Source: a virus. From it: a stretch of DNA of 11,955 nt. Positions 4 through 6,491 of the stretch are shown here, in pieces (within the stretch, counting starts at the first letter, position 1; each line of letters starts with the position of its first letter). A program made the position numbers and the translations under genes. Location of the stretch: the UHGV virus genome UHGV-0104567; one strand, written 5' to 3'. A model generated the notes under the pieces. It saw only the letters and a program-made list of their open reading frames with translations. It was not told where the DNA came from and did no database searches.

Positions 4-44
4 TGTGTACACTTTTGTGTACCCAAAAACAAAAATGTGTACCC
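4..44 (+). repeat. Three direct repeats of TGTGTAC(CC) immediately upstream of int (candidate integrase arm-type / att-proximal or int regulatory sites)
   Basis: TGTGTAC at 4-10, TGTGTACCC at 16-24 and 36-44, read directly; each preceded by a T- or A-run. Function is inferred from position only. Confidence 0.4.
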
Positions 45-49
45 ATTCA

Positions 50-1243
50 ATGATCACCGACACAAAGCTCAGGAAGGCGCTCGGCAAGAAAAGAGATGAT
101 ATCGAGATTATTTCTGATTCGCACGGGCTCAACGCCAGAATCAGCCAGGCCGGAAAAATATCATTTTTCTATCGGTATCGCTGGGCCGGTAAAGCGGTAA
201 AACTCAATGTTGGTGATTATCCTGCAATGAGTATCACCCAGGCAAGAGAGCGTCGCCAACAATTCAGAAACTGGTTAACTGAGGGACTGGATCCGCGAGA
301 GCAGGTGAAGCTGGATAAGCAGACCCGACAGGAAGCGATGTCCGTTGCCGAAGCGTTCAATTACTGGATTGAAAGGCACTGTATCGCTAACGGGCTAGTT
401 AAAGTCGATTACTATCGCCAGGTGTTTGAGAAACATATCGCCGAACCGATGAAGAATGTCAAAGTCGATAACACAGCGAAAATGCACTGGATCAACGTCT
501 TCGATTCTATAGAAAGCAGGGTGATGGCTCATTACATGCTTTCGCTGTGCAAACGGGCGTTTAGGTTCTGCGTTAACAGAAGTGTGATCGCCTCAAACCC
601 ACTCGAGGGATTACTGCCATCTGATGTCGGGCAAAAGCCTAAAAAGAGAACTCGCAGGATGGACGATGACGATCTGCGCAAAATCTATCAGTGGTTGAAA
701 AGCCATATGTCGATAGAGTCCGTTTTCCTGGTGAAATTTATTATGCTTACCGGATGCCGTACGGCTGAGATTCGACTTAGTGAGAGATCATGGTTTCGAT
801 TGGATGATAATGAGTGGGTCGTGCCTGCGGGCAGTTATAAAACTCGGGTACATATTAGAAGGGGACTCTCAGACGCCGCCGTTAACCTGGTCAGAAATCA
901 CCTCAAGAAAATAAACACCAATCACCTGGTGACTTCACAACGTAAAATTGATGGCGGGATCAAAGATTCGCCCGTTCATTCACCTGTGGCATCCAATTAC
1001 GCCCGTTCTATTTGGAATGGAACAGGTATGGCAGAGTGGTCGCTTCATGATATGAGGCGGACGATAGCCACAAATCTCTCTGAGTTAGGTTGCCCGCCGC
1101 ACGTAATTGAAAAGCTGCTCGGGCATCAGATGGTGGGGGTTATGGCGCATTACAACCTTCATGACTATATCGATGATCAGAAACACTGGCTCCGCGTTTG
1201 GCAGAGCCATCTTGAAGAGATCATCGGAGAGCCCTTCAGTTAA
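50..1243 (+). CDS. int: Tyrosine recombinase / phage integrase, P4-type (IntR-like) with N-terminal arm-binding DUF4102-like domain
   Basis: ATG at 50 gives [10 protein letters not shown]...[10 protein letters not shown], the characteristic P4-family integrase N-terminus. C-terminus has [11 protein letters not shown] ... LLGHQ ... MAHY consistent with the Arg/His/Tyr catalytic motifs. The track ORF begins at GTG 5, but the 5' extension lies in the repeat region and lacks family similarity. Confidence 0.9.
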
Positions 1244-1437
1244 TTTATCTTCTTTTTATCCTCCCACTCTTTGATTGACTCAGAGCGCCAGCGGTTAGGG
1301 TTGCCGGGCCAGTCAGGGGGTGGGAACGGGCATACGAAGCCCCGAGGCATTGTGTCTGCACTTTGCCATGACCAAAGGGTTTTGCGTGAAATTTTGTAGC
1401 GACTGGTCAGGTCTGACGTTACCAAAATATCATCCAT
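1240..1437 (-). CDS. AlpA/excisionase-like small HTH DNA-binding protein (Xis candidate)
   Basis: 65 aa from ATG at 1437 with SD GGAG 6 nt upstream; the track ORF start at 1482 is TTG. Sequence [20 protein letters not shown] ... [22 protein letters not shown] fits the AlpA/Xis HTH pattern (HTH, then F-P-x-P ... W-R-x-S-E-I-x-x-W). Stop overlaps the int stop. Confidence 0.6.
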
Positions 1438-1478
1438 AGCTCTCTCCAGTTGCCCGTTCGGGCCATTCAAAATCTTTT

Positions 1479-1721
1479 TCAACCAACCTGCCCGGGCAGG
1501 GAGCGGAGACGGCGCATGCCGGTCATCGCTGTGGCCACGTAGCTCGCCTTTCGGTTCACCACCTCCACCCAGACTTTCACGCCTTCAACCTTCACCGTAT
1601 AAGTCTCTTTCATCTTGCTTCGCCCATAGTCGCCATATGTTTGCAAGTGAGCTGCCAGCGCGATGTCGCATGCTTGGCGAGCTAAAGGTGATTGCTTACT
1701 TCCTCGATTGATCAGTCGCAT
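1479..1721 (-). CDS. Hypothetical small phage protein (80 aa)
   Basis: ATG start at 1721 with SD AAGGAG 5 nt upstream; same strand as recT and xis. No family recognised. Confidence 0.5.
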   Translation of the reverse strand: MRLINRGSKQSPLARQACDIALAAHLQTYGDYGRSKMKETYTVKVEGVKVWVEVVNRKASYVATAMTGMRRLRSLPGQVG

Positions 1722-1759: not shown

Positions 1760-2878
1760 TCAGGCCACGTATTCCGGTTTCATATCCGCCAGGGTGATGC
1801 TGAATTGATCGTGCAGTTCATCGCCTAAGTGACGCTTTGAAGATGCAAGCATGCGCTCGGCTTCAGCGAACCGTTCGGCTGCATGCGGCTCGTCGGGCTG
1901 GGGCAGGGATTTAATAGCCTCCTCAACCTTGTTGCGTGCATCCACTAGGTAATAACGCTTTACGGCTTTGTTTTTCAGCTCGGTGAATAGTGCGGATCCC
2001 AGCGTAGCTTTCGCCGTTTCAATGTCGGCACGCAGCGATTTGGCGCTATCCACGTCCTGAGCAGATTCGATGCGTTCGCGGAAATCATCGGCAAGAGAGT
2101 CGACATTTACCGACGATTCCTGTGCGCTTTGCGTGGTTGTGACGGTGTCACCTGAGATATCAGCCAGGCTAACGCGTTGCGGCGTTGGGTTGATCTCTTT
2201 TTCTGTGCGCTGTTCAATCTCATCAGGGGTGTACACACCAAGAACAACTGCAGGGCAATATAGGCGCGCCCAGTATTTGAGTGCCAGATAAGCGATCTGC
2301 TGTTTCGGGTTTGATACCCAAAGTGGAGAATTACGTGTGATTACGCTGGAGAGGAAAACAGGCTCTCCCCAGGTGATATCACTTTCACCGCGAATAACGG
2401 CACCTACCCGTACCGACAGTCCTTGTTCATCAGCACTTTCCCAACCGCGTACCATTTCTTTCTTGTCGTACGTCCCGCCACCTTTCGCAGGCTTTTTAAC
2501 GGTTATCTCGCGGCTGCTGGCACATTTCGACCAGTCGCCCTCGTACTCATAGTGAAAGCGGCCAACGATGGCGTTTGAGCTGGAGATCACCGCATTAACC
2601 AGTTGCGCTTCGTATCCCAGGACACCGTTAACCAGGTGCGTCTTTTGCGCCACGGCGTAAGGGTTCATACCCCACTGCATCGCCTGCATGATGATGGCCA
2701 TGCAGTCTGCCGGATTGCCGCGGAGGTGCTCAGGCACCGTTACGGCTGCCTGTGCCATCAACCCGGCGACAGACTGAAGCTGGGTTAAAGCCTGCACGTT
2801 GAAAATGGCATTGCTGGCTGAGATCGTGTTTGGAGTCTGCTGTTCAGCGGTTACGATATTCGTGTTTTCCATCATCAT
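1760..2878 (-). CDS. recT: RecT / Red-beta family single-strand annealing protein
   Basis: Motifs NPADCMAIIMQAMQWGMNPY and SPLWVSNPKQQIAYLALKYWARLY resemble conserved RecT/Bet segments; lies immediately downstream of the RecE-like gene as in the recET operon. Three consecutive ATGs (2878, 2875, 2872); the third has the best spacing from SD AAGGGG. Confidence 0.8.
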   Translation of the reverse strand: MMMENTNIVTAEQQTPNTISASNAIFNVQALTQLQSVAGLMAQAAVTVPEHLRGNPADCMAIIMQAMQWGMNPYAVAQKTHLVNGVLGYEAQLVNAVISSSNAIVGRFHYEYEGDWSKCASSREITVKKPAKGGGTYDKKEMVRGWESADEQGLSVRVGAVIRGESDITWGEPVFLSSVITRNSPLWVSNPKQQIAYLALKYWARLYCPAVVLGVYTPDEIEQRTEKEINPTPQRVSLADISGDTVTTTQSAQESSVNVDSLADDFRERIESAQDVDSAKSLRADIETAKATLGSALFTELKNKAVKRYYLVDARNKVEEAIKSLPQPDEPHAAERFAEAERMLASSKRHLGDELHDQFSITLADMKPEYVA

Positions 2879-2883
2879 TCCCC

Positions 2884-5793
2884 TTATGCCTGAGTACGCA
2901 GCGCTTCAAGGCGGCGCAGGTCGAAGTCGTTCAGTTCGTCGGTGTAGTCAGCAGTGATTGGCGCTGGCCATTCACCTGTGTCGAATCCGGTTGCGATATT
3001 GCGCATCGCTTTGCGGTACTCGAGCATACCCAGCTCCAGTAGTTCAGCGGATGCCTCGATGATGGCGATCCAGTGGTAGTTCTCGTCTTTGTTGACGAAA
3101 ATCCAGAAGAACTGATCCAGCGCTGCGGTTTCGCAGTACATAGCCGCGCTCAGGTGATAATCACGTTCAATAATTTCCCGGTGTAGCCTGGCGCGCAGGC
3201 TTTCCTGCTTAACATTCCACATGCTGATGGTTTTCAGGTCTGCACCTATACGCACGCCATCCAGGTCGATCTCAAGGTCAGGGCGCACACGAACTTCCAA
3301 GCCCGTCTCCTCGTCAAAACCAAAGTAGCTCACCTCAACGGCTCGGCTAGGGTGGGTCAGCAGCATGCCGGCGGTCGGGTGTGCCAGAAGCGCTTTTTGA
3401 ATATTCAGCGCGGTGCTCAGCTGCTGGCGGGTGACCAGCACTTTTCCTTCCGGGTTATCGCGCCAGGCATCCAGCAGTTCGTCGGCAAATACGGCATCTG
3501 GTTTGACTGCCTTCACGGCCTGGATCATGTCTGCTTTGGTACCGGACACTTTCAGTGGTGCCGGTTTCTGTGCTTCCTGAGCCACAAGGTCAGGGTTGAT
3601 GATTGCCAACTGCTCCAGCAGCGCGTCACGGCTGCCGCTGGTTTTAACCGGCGGCGGCAGGGTGGCGTTGTACTCTTTAATGCATGCCTTCATTGCCGTC
3701 GCCGTCTGCTTCTGGTCACCATCAATACGCTGGAAGTCAGCTGGCAGCGCCATATAGTTCTGTGCCGTTTCTTCCAGGTTAGCGCCAAGCGGAACCTGCG
3801 GCGGCAGGGTGGCGTTGTACTCTTCCAGTAACACCTTGATGTCGTCGGCAGACAGCAGCGCCGGCAGGCTGGCATTGTGCTCATCGATAAAGGCGCGCAG
3901 GGTCGCGGCCGTTGTGAATGCGCCTTCAGGGATCACCGGTTCAACGCTGAATTCTGCGTCCAGTAGTTCAGGCTGCAACGCCAGCGCATGCACCAAGTTG
4001 CCCATGTCCAGCACCGCTGAGCGCTCTTTGACGATGGTTTTCTCTACGTGGCGCGCATTGAAGTACATCAGCGAAACGCGCGCATCTTTCACCTGGGTTG
4101 AGCTGATGCCGTTGGCGGCGTGGTAAACCTCGTTTGGCAGCCCTTCATAGCGGCCTGGCTCGAAATAAGCGGGATAAACAACAGCTGGTTCGTCAGATTG
4201 CGCTTCTGGCTCGGTTTGTGCTGCAACTGGTTCGGTTTGGCTTACAGAATCGCTATTTTTGGCGACAGAATCCGTATTCTGGTCTACATCGTCCTTCTGG
4301 CTGGTATCTGACTCTTCACCAGACTCCAGACTGCTTTCGCCTGGCTGTACTTCATCACCAGCTTGTTTTTCATCACTGACAGTTTCTTGAACCTGCACAT
4401 TGCTGGTGGTCTCCGTAGCCTTTTTCGTGCCATGAGTTGCTGAGTTCTGCAGCAAAGCCGTAACGTCGAATATTCCGTTGCCGACATTTTTAACCAGTTC
4501 TTGTTCGACTTTCTGCGGTTGTGCTGCCGCTTCCTCTGCGCGGCGGCGTGCTCCTTCTTCACGCACGCGTTGCAGGTTCTCTTCGTGAGTGCAGAAGGAT
4601 TTGCGCGGAGACTCCTTACCTTCAGGTTGGGGAATTTCCTGTGCTGCGGGTTCAGCCTCATGCAACGGCAATAACTCGACCGCGGAATTGAACGCGGCTG
4701 TCATGGTCTGGTTAACAAATTCCAGGTGAGCGACAGGAGTTAAATGAATATTTTCCGGTGCGATACGTACCAGGTTAAAAATAGCCGTGCGGTTAACACC
4801 CAGAACGCCTGGCTGATTGCGCAGGATGTTGCTCCATGATTTCCATGGTTCTTCTTTTTTGGTCACGATTTCTTTAGCGCGACGAAGAATGCTGCCCGGG
4901 ATCTCGAAGTGGTTGAAGTCCATAGGCAGAAGGGCACACGCAATCTCTAAATCGAGAGTGTCCAGTGTGTGGTGTGCGTCAGGTCCACGGTCAGTGACGT
5001 AACCGCCGTCGGCATTAGTGCCGGAATCAGTACGCTGCACACTACTGATGCGATTACCGGCGGCCCATTCACGCGCCAGGATGCCACGGTCAATGTAATC
5101 AGTCGCCGCCCACATTCTGGTGAAACGGAGTACCAGCGCGAGTTCGTGACGCTTGTCCTGGCTGAACACTTTGCGAATGGCATCGGTGTAGCGCCACAGG
5201 TCTTTGGTGTCGTAACCCTTCACTTCCGGGCAGTTCTCAGCAGCTAACAGCAAGTTCTGGACGTAACTGTTATCAGTGTCCATCTCCAGCGCGCCGATAG
5301 CTTCGTACTCTTCGTGGGTTACGTGGTGGCGCAGTTCGTCGGCGGTGAACTGGGAAAGCAGTTGCTTACGAAACGGCATCTGCACTACCGGGTAGAGGGT
5401 TGAGTCGTCGTCGTGTTCGTCCAGCGTGATGCCAGCGGTTTCTGGCAGCGTTGACTCAGTAGTTATGTGACTATCAACGGTCTGAGCCGTTTTCTCGTCA
5501 GAGTTTTCAGCTGTGACTTTTGGCAGCCAGGTGCGGTCATCGTTCTGCAGTTCGTAGCGTTCGCACCAGGTGTAATCCACTGCGCCTTCTTCCGGCAGGT
5601 CGTCATATACCGGGAAATCGGTGCGGATTGGTTTGGCATAATCTTTACCGCGGCCAGTTTCTTCAATTCCGGCTTCTTCCAGTGCCACATCGAGTTGGAG
5701 ATTGGCGCGCGCTACACTTTTCGCAGTGAACCAAATCACTGCATCTTTCTTGCCAGACTTCTGACTGGCTTTTATCAGATGGAAAAATTCCAT
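2884..5793 (-). CDS. recE: Exodeoxyribonuclease VIII (RecE-like) with C-terminal PD-(D/E)XK nuclease domain
   Basis: 969 aa, ATG at 5793 with SD AGAGGA. N-terminal segments DFPVYDDLPEEGAVDYTWCERYEL and TDYIDRGILAREWAAGNRIS resemble E. coli RecE as I recall it. C-terminal RPDLEIDLDG...GADLKT fits PD-(D/E)XK motifs. Synteny with recT. Confidence 0.8.
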   Translation of the reverse strand: MEFFHLIKASQKSGKKDAVIWFTAKSVARANLQLDVALEEAGIEETGRGKDYAKPIRTDFPVYDDLPEEGAVDYTWCERYELQNDDRTWLPKVTAENSDEKTAQTVDSHITTESTLPETAGITLDEHDDDSTLYPVVQMPFRKQLLSQFTADELRHHVTHEEYEAIGALEMDTDNSYVQNLLLAAENCPEVKGYDTKDLWRYTDAIRKVFSQDKRHELALVLRFTRMWAATDYIDRGILAREWAAGNRISSVQRTDSGTNADGGYVTDRGPDAHHTLDTLDLEIACALLPMDFNHFEIPGSILRRAKEIVTKKEEPWKSWSNILRNQPGVLGVNRTAIFNLVRIAPENIHLTPVAHLEFVNQTMTAAFNSAVELLPLHEAEPAAQEIPQPEGKESPRKSFCTHEENLQRVREEGARRRAEEAAAQPQKVEQELVKNVGNGIFDVTALLQNSATHGTKKATETTSNVQVQETVSDEKQAGDEVQPGESSLESGEESDTSQKDDVDQNTDSVAKNSDSVSQTEPVAAQTEPEAQSDEPAVVYPAYFEPGRYEGLPNEVYHAANGISSTQVKDARVSLMYFNARHVEKTIVKERSAVLDMGNLVHALALQPELLDAEFSVEPVIPEGAFTTAATLRAFIDEHNASLPALLSADDIKVLLEEYNATLPPQVPLGANLEETAQNYMALPADFQRIDGDQKQTATAMKACIKEYNATLPPPVKTSGSRDALLEQLAIINPDLVAQEAQKPAPLKVSGTKADMIQAVKAVKPDAVFADELLDAWRDNPEGKVLVTRQQLSTALNIQKALLAHPTAGMLLTHPSRAVEVSYFGFDEETGLEVRVRPDLEIDLDGVRIGADLKTISMWNVKQESLRARLHREIIERDYHLSAAMYCETAALDQFFWIFVNKDENYHWIAIIEASAELLELGMLEYRKAMRNIATGFDTGEWPAPITADYTDELNDFDLRRLEALRTQA
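3651..3824 (-). repeat. Perfect 27-bp direct repeat inside recE, copies at 3651-3677 and 3798-3824, 147 bp apart (in frame)
   Basis: GCGGCGGCAGGGTGGCGTTGTACTCTT occurs twice, read directly. On the coding strand it encodes the duplicated peptide EYNATLPP, 49 codons apart. Confidence 0.85.
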
Positions 5794-6312: not shown

Positions 6313-6491
6313 GATGTACTCCAGTTTTTCTGAGTGAACTTCGCTGGTGGTGCCGTGGTGCTGATCTTCACAGTTGAGCGTTTTAACTCTGCAGTTCACC
6401 ACCGCGAAACCCACTCTTATGTGCCTGTCTTTTATCCACTTCAGGCTCGGTGGTATGCTGGTAGTTCTCACACAGCCAGCAAGGAATAACT

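What the first reader, a model, noticed from the sequence alone, without database searches (positions are those of the whole stretch)
2884..5793. RecE-like exonuclease with a perfect 27-bp in-frame internal direct repeat
Seen: GCGGCGGCAGGGTGGCGTTGTACTCTT at 3651-3677 and 3798-3824, encoding EYNATLPP twice, 49 codons apart, within a run of short helical segments (ADDIKVLLEEYNATLPP, RDALLEQLAIINPDL, KADMIQAVKAVKPD). Inference: these look like tandem helix-turn modules lying between recognisable nuclease-domain segments. Homologous recombination between the two copies would delete exactly 147 bp in frame, so the locus may be length-polymorphic. The perfect identity suggests a recent duplication or ongoing conversion.
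Basis: partly seen in the sequence, partly recalled or inferred. Interest (0 to 1): 0.5.

Follow-up and report, generated by a model that had tools for sequence, protein, structure and literature searches.

The report
Length-variable helical insert in phage RecE
A prophage recombination nuclease (RecE) has two identical 27-base stretches inside a conserved helical insert, and public genomes contain the exact 147-base in-frame deletion and duplication that recombination between them would produce; this is a tidy but modest case of a protein domain that changes length in nature.

Summary
GCGGCGGCAGGGTGGCGTTGTACTCTT occurs at 3651-3677 and 3798-3824, inside a 969-aa RecE-family gene (2884-5793, minus strand) of an mEp237-like lambdoid prophage. 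It encodes EYNATLPP twice, 49 codons apart.

The predicted length polymorphism exists. E. coli 730V1 carries the exact 147-bp deletion product and CUWW10 the exact duplication product, each with no mismatch to the prediction. A metagenome contig carries the same 49-codon deletion in a different allele.

It is not a recent duplication. The two motifs, 49 codons apart, are conserved across Enterobacterales RecE genes whose synonymous sites are nearly saturated. Codon choice does not explain the identity (P about 3e-4). The two copies share lineage-specific synonymous codons, which points to short-tract gene conversion or unequal exchange.

The repeats encode the end of two equivalent 14-residue helices in a roughly 168-aa all-helical insert (AlphaFold pLDDT about 87-90, dN/dS about 0.11). 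The insert replaces the 34-residue channel-rim loop (residues 665-698) of Rac RecE. Its modules are weakly SAP/HeH-like and vary in number across the family. What the insert does, DNA capture or partner docking, is inferred only.

Verdict: a new variant of a known kind, of moderate interest.

The parts
2884..5793 (-). recE: 969-aa RecE-family exodeoxyribonuclease gene, stop codon included
   Evidence: ORF list and translation. 99.8% identical to the exonuclease gene of phage mEp237. Pfam PF06630 and PF12684. NCBIfam PRK09709 matched at 458 bits, below its equivalog cut-off of 1269.
4201..5784 (-). N-terminal region (aa 4-531) homologous to the N-terminal part of Rac RecE, followed by an acidic low-complexity linker
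   Evidence: Pfam Exonuc_VIII at aa 4-181, E=9e-22. NCBIfam PRK09709 at aa 4-531. Net charge is -18 for aa 401-537.
3934..4182 (-). First part of the PD-(D/E)XK nuclease domain (aa 538-620), including the histidine equivalent to Rac RecE His-652 (codon within 3976-3996)
   Evidence: Aligned to 3H4R chain residues 5-95. The histidine is invariant in alignment A2. Coordinates.
3430..3933 (-). About 168-aa all-helical insert (aa 621-788). It is built of three H1 modules, a helical hairpin and two H2 modules, and takes the place of the Rac RecE rim loop 665-698
   Evidence: 134 profile positions have no counterpart in 3H4R. AlphaFold pLDDT is about 90 in the whole-domain model and 87 when the insert is modelled alone. 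dN/dS is 0.11. Loop description from PMC11611040.
3798..3824 (-). Repeat copy nearer the 5' end of the gene: end of helix H1b and start of its proline-rich linker (EYNATLPP, aa 658-665)
3651..3677 (-). Repeat copy nearer the 3' end of the gene: end of helix H1c and start of its linker (EYNATLPP, aa 707-714)
3651..3797 (-). The 147-bp (49-codon) unit that is lost in E. coli 730V1 and duplicated in E. coli CUWW10
   Evidence: L002 equals the predicted deletion product (0 mismatches in 554 nt). L001 equals the predicted duplication product (0 mismatches in 848 nt).
3853..3884 (-). Third, degenerate copy (75% identical) at the end of helix H1a (EHNASLPA), 60 nt = 20 codons from the H1b copy
   Evidence: (family D1). 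A 20-aa extra module in this register occurs in the 482-aa length class.
3664..3912 (-). Helices H1a (3871-3912), H1b (3811-3852), hairpin helix (3736-3780) and H1c (3664-3705)
   Evidence: DSSP on the AlphaFold models. Coordinates. The three H1 asparagines are invariant in 25 diverse homologues.
3508..3633 (-). H2a (3574-3633) and H2b (3508-3540): modules of the type SG-x-[KR]-x-x-L-[LI], resembling the second helix of a SAP domain
   Evidence: Pfam SAP partial matches fall here. Coordinates.
2887..3429 (-). Second part of the nuclease domain (aa 789-969), with the catalytic RPD (3265-3291) and D-L-K (3229-3246) motifs
   Evidence: Pfam DUF3799 at aa 792-944. Aligned to 3H4R chain residues 90-249. 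Invariant columns. Coordinates.
1760..2878 (-). recT: the partner single-strand annealing protein, immediately downstream of recE
   Evidence: Pfam RecT, E=2.5e-36. The same gene order is annotated in related prophages.

Best explanation
The locus is the recE gene of an mEp237/Gifsy-type lambdoid prophage.

Where the repeats sit. The nuclease domain carries a conserved, folded, all-helical insert of about 168 residues. It occupies the place where Rac RecE has a 34-residue loop on the rim of the DNA channel. The insert is built from short homologous modules: three H1 helices ending in [YH]-N-A-[ST]-L-P, one hairpin, and two H2 helices. The two 27-nt repeats encode the last four residues and the proline-rich linker of helices H1b and H1c, which are structurally equivalent points.

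What is shown. The two-module arrangement is old, but the two DNA patches are kept identical or nearly so within a lineage. This is best explained by short-tract gene conversion or cycles of unequal exchange.

What is inferred. The 27-nt identity is long enough to allow occasional misaligned recombination or replication slippage. Such an event removes or adds exactly one 49-codon unit (half of H1b, the hairpin, half of H1c) and leaves a regular helix at the junction. This gives 1-, 2- and 3-unit RecE proteins with intact reading frames.

What is speculative. The modules resemble halves of SAP/LEM-type helix-extended-helix domains. Four such arrays would crown the mouth of the RecE tetramer. 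They probably help to capture the DNA end or to dock a partner such as RecT, so the number of modules would set the size or reach of this crown.
For: - Repeat confirmed and not due to chance or codon usage.
- Exact deletion and duplication products of this very allele are found in two complete E. coli genomes, with intact annotated CDSs of 920 and 1178 aa.
- The 3-unit protein also occurs under a second NCBI protein accession (EFB9665630.1; seen on 2 contigs). Its 2-unit parent form (1129 aa) is common.
- An independent 1-unit deletion occurs in a different allele on metagenome contig PPYF01172921.1, with an open frame of 917 aa.
- The motifs stay 49 codons apart (50 in four) in 74 loci, 65 from species-representative genomes.
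- Within-genome identity of the two copies exceeds between-genome identity (24.4 against 22.9 of 30 nt; permutation p=1e-4).
- The synonymous proline codon is the same in both copies in 53 of 73 loci, against 23.3 expected. All four codons occur as concordant pairs.
- On a tree built from flanking sequence, changes in the two copies fall on the same branch 8 times, against 2.7 expected.
- Synonymous divergence between alleles is about 0.8-1.2, while the two copies differ at no site.
- The insert is placed in the Rac RecE loop 665-698 by the profile alignment to 3H4R together with the published description of that loop (PMC11611040).
- The insert is predicted helical with pLDDT 87-90 and is under purifying selection, dN/dS 0.11.
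- Other module-number variants exist at 20-aa and 31-aa registers, and Providencia has a minimal form.
Against: - Copy-number variants are rare: 2 of about 34 near-identical alleles in complete E. coli genomes, 0 of 43 IMG/VR contigs, 1 of 24 metagenome contigs. The 1-unit E. coli protein is known from a single assembly, so an assembly error there cannot be excluded.
- The conversion evidence rests on a patch of about 30 nt. The two copies are tightly linked and phage alleles are mosaic, so related sequences inflate the counts. The tree-aware excess is moderate (8 against 2.7).
- The mechanism of the rearrangement (RecA, RecET or slippage) was not tested.
- The AlphaFold model of the nuclease core was of low confidence, so how the insert packs against the core is unknown.
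Confidence: 0.75

Rival explanations
1. Recent duplication: the two copies are identical because a 147-bp segment was duplicated recently in this lineage.
For: The 27-nt identity is perfect. A true recent duplication of the unit does exist in CUWW10.
Against: In the window the 147-nt unit is only 44% identical to the following 147 nt. The two motifs 49 codons apart are present in Escherichia, Salmonella, Klebsiella, Enterobacter, Citrobacter, Kluyvera, Serratia and more distant homologues, whose synonymous divergence is about 1.
Confidence: 0.02
2. Constraint only: the same peptide is needed twice, and codon bias or selection on the mRNA makes the DNA identical, without any exchange between the copies.
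For: The peptide E[YH]NA[ST]LP is strongly conserved in both positions. Several codons (AAC, GCC, ACC, CTG) are the commonest choice in both copies across the family.
Against: The probability of eight identical codons under the window's codon usage is 3.4e-4, and 0 of 1000 resampled genes gave 27 nt. At the variable proline codon all four synonymous codons occur as matching pairs (29, 14, 7 and 3 loci), 53 of 73 against 23.3 expected. Non-synonymous lineage-specific states are also shared, such as EHN in both copies of Siccibacter and Pro-to-Ala in both copies of HK225-type alleles.
Confidence: 0.08
3. Assembly artefact: the 1-unit and 3-unit forms are errors of genome assembly at a short repeat, not real alleles.
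For: Repeats can mislead assemblers. The 1-unit E. coli protein is found in one assembly only. The 3-unit variant with diverged units (P0012) comes from a short metagenome contig that could be a chimera.
Against: Both E. coli records are complete chromosomes with intact, in-frame genes. Expansion of a repeat is not a typical assembler error, and the 3-unit protein occurs under two separate NCBI accessions. A second, independent 1-unit allele with a different sequence background exists. Stable length classes with extra 20-aa and 31-aa modules are common in Klebsiella and others.
Confidence: 0.07
4. Adaptive switch: the repeats are maintained because frequent, reversible gain and loss of the unit tunes RecE activity or helps it escape a host or phage inhibitor (a contingency locus).
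For: Identity is actively maintained. Variants keep the reading frame, recur in different alleles, and module number varies across the family.
Against: Variants are rare and the 2-unit form dominates in every data set. 27 nt is a weak substrate compared with classical contingency repeats. No phenotype is known.
Confidence: 0.08

Closest known systems
Rac prophage RecE (exonuclease VIII), nuclease domain structure PDB 3H4R
   Same: Homologous N-terminal region and C-terminal PD-(D/E)XK nuclease domain. The His, PD and DxK active-site residues are conserved, and the gene is paired with recT.
   Different: Rac RecE has a 34-residue, largely disordered rim loop (665-698) where this protein has a folded helical array of about 168 residues. 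The protein scores far below the NCBIfam equivalog cut-off (458 against 1269 bits).
RecE of phages mEp237, HK225, Gifsy-1/Gifsy-2, SPN3UB and related Klebsiella prophages
   Same: The same gene family and the same two-motif helical insert. mEp237 is 99.8% identical over the gene.
   Different: In several of these the two patches are no longer identical (for example PHB10 18 of 30, Gifsy-1 24 of 30). No record or paper I found describes the insert or its length variants.
SAP / LEM-like helix-extended-helix (HeH) domains
   Different: Only half-profile matches. The window's own sequence is below threshold. Here the half-units are multiplied (H1 one to three times, H2 one to three times) rather than forming a single 35-residue domain. 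The array is net acidic.
Deletion and duplication between short direct repeats in E. coli (misaligned recombination or replication slippage)
   Same: The event joins two short identical repeats about 150 bp apart and removes or adds the interval. RecA-independent deletions between short direct repeats are documented in E. coli K-12 (PMC5426353, abstract seen).
   Different: Here the repeats lie at equivalent points of two homologous helices, so both products are in frame and structurally regular. The repeats also appear to be kept identical over evolutionary time.
The 42-nt in-frame indel in Gifsy-1 recE (PMC8496262)
   Same: An in-frame length difference inside a Gifsy-type recE gene, seen between laboratory Salmonella lineages.
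   Different: That indel lies in the acidic linker in the middle of the gene, not in the nuclease-domain insert. It corresponds to the gap seen between Gifsy-1 and SPN3UB.

Membership tests
RecE family exonuclease (PD-(D/E)XK, Rac RecE type) | Sequence homology of the C-terminal domain to the RecE nuclease domain | tested here: met
   A profile of 34 homologues against PDB gives 3H4R at E=7.5e-11, in two stretches. Pfam PF12684 E=5.6e-10.
RecE family exonuclease (PD-(D/E)XK, Rac RecE type) | Catalytic residues: the His-652 equivalent, the PD motif and the D-x-K motif | tested here: met
   LVHALAL (aa 600-606), RVRPDLEID (835-843) and GADLKT (850-855) align with the RecE motifs and are invariant in alignment A2.
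RecE family exonuclease (PD-(D/E)XK, Rac RecE type) | N-terminal exonuclease VIII region | tested here: met
   Pfam PF06630 at aa 4-181, E=9e-22. NCBIfam PRK09709 aligned over aa 4-531.
RecE family exonuclease (PD-(D/E)XK, Rac RecE type) | Equivalog of Rac RecE by NCBIfam PRK09709 (cut-off 1269 bits) | tested here: not met
   458.5 bits. It is a family member but not an equivalog of the Rac protein. RefSeq names its relatives 'RecE family exodeoxyribonuclease'.
RecE family exonuclease (PD-(D/E)XK, Rac RecE type) | Operon partner RecT | tested here: met
   A RecT-family ORF lies at 1760-2878, immediately downstream on the same strand.
RecE family exonuclease (PD-(D/E)XK, Rac RecE type) | Toroidal tetramer and processive 5'-3' exonuclease activity | not testable with these tools
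   The AlphaFold monomer model of the core was of low confidence. No multimer prediction or biochemistry was available.
SAP / HeH domain | Match to Pfam SAP (PF02037) above its gathering score of 23.9 bits | tested here: inconclusive
   The window's insert scores 14.2 bits, E=0.03. Of 25 diverse homologous inserts, 15 match at E<=1, and two reach 26.5 and 25.3 bits. All matches cover only profile positions 19-35.
SAP / HeH domain | Helix-extended loop-helix fold | tested here: inconclusive
SAP / HeH domain | Binding of DNA (or of a defined partner) | not testable with these tools
   Indirect evidence only: the position corresponds to the presumed DNA-capturing loop of Rac RecE, but the net charge of -9 argues against simple DNA binding.
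Contingency (phase-variable) repeat locus | Array of identical tandem units with frequent reversible gain and loss | tested here: not met
   Only the 27-nt boundaries are identical and the units are 44% alike. TRF finds no array. Variants are 3 among roughly 100 contigs that carry the 27-mer. The switching rate itself was not measurable.

The most novel reading that the evidence does not exclude
The helical array on the rim of the RecE ring is an evolvable, length-adjustable device. Conversion keeps short recombinogenic patches at the ends of equivalent helices, so that modules can be added or removed in frame at 20-, 31- and 49-residue registers. Module number would then tune how the ring engages DNA ends or its RecT partner, or help it evade a host or rival-phage inhibitor. 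That would make this a contingency-like locus inside a phage recombination enzyme.
Probability: 0.12. Interest if true: 0.65.

Novelty: new variant of a known kind. Interest (0 to 1): 0.4.

Why it matters
RecE/RecT is one of the two systems used for recombineering, yet only the Rac enzyme has been studied structurally, and its DNA-capturing rim loops are disordered in the crystal.

The Gifsy/mEp237-type enzymes are common in Enterobacterales prophages. They replace that loop with a conserved, folded array of SAP-like helical modules whose number differs between natural alleles. This offers a ready-made natural series (1, 2 and 3 units, plus other length classes) for testing what the rim of the ring does: substrate capture, processivity or RecT loading.

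It is also a clean small example of how short patches kept identical inside a gene allow in-frame gain and loss of structural modules. It does not reveal a new kind of system.

Tried and rejected
- AlphaFold on the whole C-terminal domain (34-sequence alignment) gave a confident insert but a low-confidence nuclease core (pLDDT below 50). The Foldseek search of PDB with that model was therefore meaningless and did not even recover 3H4R.
- The afdb50 fold library was not available.
- Foldseek of the insert model against viral predicted structures gave nothing (best E=0.56).
- A sequence search of PDB with the insert alone gave nothing.
- Pfam on the window's insert alone gave only a sub-threshold SAP hit. 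The signal became usable only when 25 diverse homologues were scanned.
- Scanning IMG/VR for the 27-mer found 43 contigs but no copy-number variant. Contigs with a single exact match simply have an imperfect second copy.
- The truncated match in E. coli EC2001 is a rearrangement next to IS26, not an event at the repeats.
- Tandem Repeats Finder does not see the 147-nt period.
- Literature searches on RecE, Gifsy, SAP and DUF3799 found no description of the insert or of its length variants.
- I considered a DNA-level role for the 27-mer, such as a Chi-like site. It does not contain Chi, and the Chi count in the window (2 against 0.48 expected; 15 of 200 shuffles reached at least 2) is not significant.
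Full report
1. THE OBSERVATION

The window is the early-left region of a lambdoid prophage. It holds an integrase (5-1243, plus strand), recT (1760-2878, minus) and a 969-aa ORF at 2884-5793 (minus). That ORF is 99.8% identical to the exonuclease gene of Enterobacteria phage mEp237. The window as a whole is a mosaic closest to mEp237 and HK225.

The 27-mer GCGGCGGCAGGGTGGCGTTGTACTCTT occurs at exactly 3651-3677 and 3798-3824 and nowhere else. Both copies are in frame and encode EYNATLPP, at residues 658-665 and 707-714, 49 codons apart. The match extends to 32 nt with one mismatch. A third, 75% copy lies 60 nt further on, at 3853-3884.

Chance does not explain this.
- Codon-shuffled genes never gave an exact repeat of 20 nt or more.
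- With the protein kept and codons redrawn from the window's own usage, 0 of 1000 genes gave 27 nt.
- The probability that all eight codons agree is 3.4e-4.

This is not a tandem repeat of whole units. The 147-nt unit is only 44% identical to the next 147 nt, and Tandem Repeats Finder does not report it.

2. THE PREDICTED POLYMORPHISM EXISTS

A search of 5,426 complete E. coli genomes with window 3400-4100 found 58 prophages. About 34 carry a near-identical allele that can be classified.

- Strain O19:H7 730V1 has a match 147 bp shorter.
- Strain CUWW10 has a match 147 bp longer.
- I built the products expected from one misaligned exchange between the two 27-mers. 730V1 equals the predicted deletion with 0 mismatches in 554 nt. 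CUWW10 equals the predicted duplication with 0 mismatches in 848 nt.
- Both genes are annotated as intact, at 920 and 1178 aa.
- The 1178-aa protein is also recorded under a second NCBI accession (EFB9665630.1). Its 1129-aa two-unit parent form is common. The 920-aa protein is known from 730V1 only.

I then scanned other collections for the 27-mer.
- IMG/VR: 43 contigs, all with the two-unit arrangement.
- Metagenomes: 24 contigs. One of them, PPYF01172921.1, has the same 49-codon deletion in a clearly different allele, with an open frame of 917 aa.

A three-unit protein with diverged units (P0012) also exists. It comes from a short metagenome contig and could be a chimeric assembly.

So the length variants are real and recurrent, but rare.

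3. NOT A RECENT DUPLICATION, AND THE COPIES EVOLVE TOGETHER

The two motifs are present in RecE genes of Salmonella (Gifsy-1, SPN3UB), Klebsiella, Enterobacter, Citrobacter, Kluyvera, Serratia and many others. In 74 loci, 65 of them from species-representative genomes, the spacing is 49 codons, or 50 in four of them. Synonymous divergence between these alleles is about 0.8-1.2. Copies that old should have drifted apart.

Instead, the two patches resemble each other more within a genome than between genomes: 24.4 against 22.9 of 30 nt (permutation p=1e-4). At the freely variable proline codon:
- both copies use the same synonymous codon in 53 of 73 loci, against 23.3 expected;
- all four codons occur as matching pairs (CCC 29, CCG 14, CCA 7, CCT 3).

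Lineage-specific amino-acid states are also shared. Examples are EHN in both copies in Siccibacter, and Pro-to-Ala in both copies of HK225-type alleles. Perfect 30-nt identity with different sequences occurs in Citrobacter youngae, Siccibacter, Kluyvera and E. coli 1218KP.

On a neighbour-joining tree built from the flanking sequence, changes in the two copies fall on the same branch 8 times, 6 of them to the same codon, against 2.7 expected.

These tests are limited. The patch is short, the copies are linked, and phage alleles are mosaic. Even so, short-tract conversion or cycles of unequal exchange is the simplest reading. Constraint on the peptide plus codon bias does not account for the matching synonymous codons.

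4. WHAT THE REPEATS ENCODE

A profile of 34 homologues matches the Rac RecE nuclease domain (PDB 3H4R) at E=7.5e-11. The match comes in two pieces, chain residues 5-95 and 90-249, and 134 profile positions between them have no counterpart (single-sequence version).

The chain is 265 residues, consistent with 4 tag residues followed by RecE residues 606-866. Its histidine 51 would then be the published His-652. Under that offset of 601, the unmatched block sits inside Rac residues 665-698. [quoted passage not shown]

In the present protein that loop is replaced by residues 621-788.
- AlphaFold predicts this stretch as all-helical with high confidence: pLDDT about 90 in the whole-domain model, and 87 with pTM 0.67 when modelled alone.
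- It is under purifying selection almost as strong as the nuclease core (dN/dS 0.11 against 0.08).
- The nuclease core itself was modelled poorly, so how the insert packs against it is unknown.

The insert is modular:
- three 14-residue helices (H1a, H1b, H1c), each ending in [YH]-N-A-[ST]-L-P, whose asparagine is invariant in 25 diverse homologues;
- a helical hairpin between H1b and H1c;
- two H2 modules of the type K-T-S-G-x-R-x-x-L-L.

The repeated peptide EYNATLPP is the last turn of H1b and of H1c plus the start of the proline-rich linker. An exchange between the two patches therefore joins equivalent points of two helices. It removes or adds half of H1b, the hairpin and half of H1c, and leaves a regular helix at the junction.

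5. MODULE NUMBER VARIES ACROSS THE FAMILY

- A 482-aa domain class, common in Klebsiella pneumoniae and also found in E. coli and Silvania, carries one extra 20-aa H1 module and one extra 31-aa H2 module.
- More distant homologues have three H1 and three H2 modules.
- A Providencia protein has only one of each.
- Rac RecE appears to keep a single H1-like segment.

The 20-aa register equals the spacing between the weak third repeat copy and the H1b copy in the window.

The insert as a whole is narrowly distributed. Only 78 of 1.84 billion 50%-identity cluster representatives match it, and nearly all of those examined are RecE-like proteins.

6. WHAT THE MODULES RESEMBLE

The window's own insert gives only a sub-threshold Pfam SAP hit (14 bits, E=0.03). 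Across 25 diverse inserts the signal is stronger:
- 15 match SAP at E<=1, and two exceed the gathering score (26.5 and 25.3 against 23.9 bits);
- 7 match SAP_new25;
- one H1 module matches the LEM-like Thymopoietin profile at E=2.7e-4.

The SAP matches always cover only the second half of the profile and fall on H2 modules.

I therefore describe the modules as SAP/HeH-like half-units that have been multiplied. This is a resemblance, not an established membership.

Against a simple DNA-binding role, the insert is net acidic: -9 here and a mean of -7 across the family. Docking of RecT or another partner is an equally open possibility.

7. MECHANISM, WITH STATUS OF EACH STEP

- Shown: the repeat, its position in the protein, the conserved architecture, the exact deletion and duplication alleles, and the excess similarity of the two copies within genomes.
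- Inferred: conversion keeps the patches identical, and misaligned recombination or replication slippage between them generates the variants. Deletion between short direct repeats without RecA is documented in E. coli (PMC5426353).
- Speculative: four arrays crown the mouth of the RecE tetramer, and module number tunes substrate or partner engagement.

8. COMPARISON AND VERDICT

The gene is a member of the RecE family. It shows homology, catalytic residues, the N-terminal region and a RecT partner. It is not an equivalog of Rac RecE (458 against 1269 bits). Close relatives are already annotated in phages and prophages.

I found no description of three things in the searchable literature:
- the folded SAP-like array that replaces the rim loop;
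- its variable module number;
- the conserved recombinogenic patches with natural 1-, 2- and 3-unit alleles.

An unrelated 42-nt in-frame indel in the linker of Gifsy-1 recE has been reported (PMC8496262).

I rate this a new variant of a known kind, of moderate interest. Its 'recent duplication' alternative was wrong.

Noticed in passing
window 4236-4278: A 21-nt tandem repeat (2 copies, 81% match) lies in the acidic linker of recE, encoding NTDSVAKNSDSVSQ. Alleles differ by indels in this linker (alignment). A 42-nt in-frame indel in the middle of Gifsy-1 recE is published (PMC8496262). This is a second length-variable spot in the same gene.
   Followed up: partly
L001 2485-6021 (E. coli CUWW10) compared with window 4700-5793: The N-terminal third of RecE is mosaic. 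The CUWW10-type protein has about 160 extra residues between aa ~98 and ~135 of the window protein and a diverged following segment, yet its C-terminal 700 residues are near-identical. HK225 and PHB10 also have longer genes.
   Followed up: no
window 4402-4409 and 6343-6350 (+ strand): Two Chi sites (GCTGGTGG), both on the plus strand, against 0.48 expected; 15 of 200 shuffles reached at least 2, so this is not significant. A 2025 paper notes that Gifsy-1-type phages, which lack an anti-RecBCD gene, are often Chi-rich (PMC12315714).
   Followed up: partly
L069 (Sphingomonas sp. NPDC019816), L077 (Streptomyces sp. NPDC002677), L081 (Prolixibacteraceae JC049): Contigs in assemblies of non-enterobacterial organisms carry Serratia-like or Enterobacteriaceae-like recE (64-89% identical to the window protein). 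L069 and L077 have identical repeat-region sequence. These are probably contaminating enterobacterial DNA in those assemblies.
   Followed up: no
L086 (E. coli EC2001), locus 556-2881: recE and recT are both truncated, with an IS26 transposase gene next to recT and a partial ISNCY transposase gene beyond it. This is an unrelated decay of the same prophage module.
   Followed up: yes
window 2887-4182 (protein aa 538-969): AlphaFold with a 34-sequence alignment was confident about the helical insert (pLDDT about 90) but not about the well-known PD-(D/E)XK core (below 50). This is the reverse of what one would expect. The reason was not examined; a shallow, highly similar alignment or the tetrameric nature of RecE are guesses.
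   Followed up: no
window 1240-1721: Two small minus-strand ORFs of 80 aa each lie between the integrase gene and recT. The one at 1479-1721 matches the position and size of the gene annotated DUF4060 in related prophages. The other was not examined.
   Followed up: no
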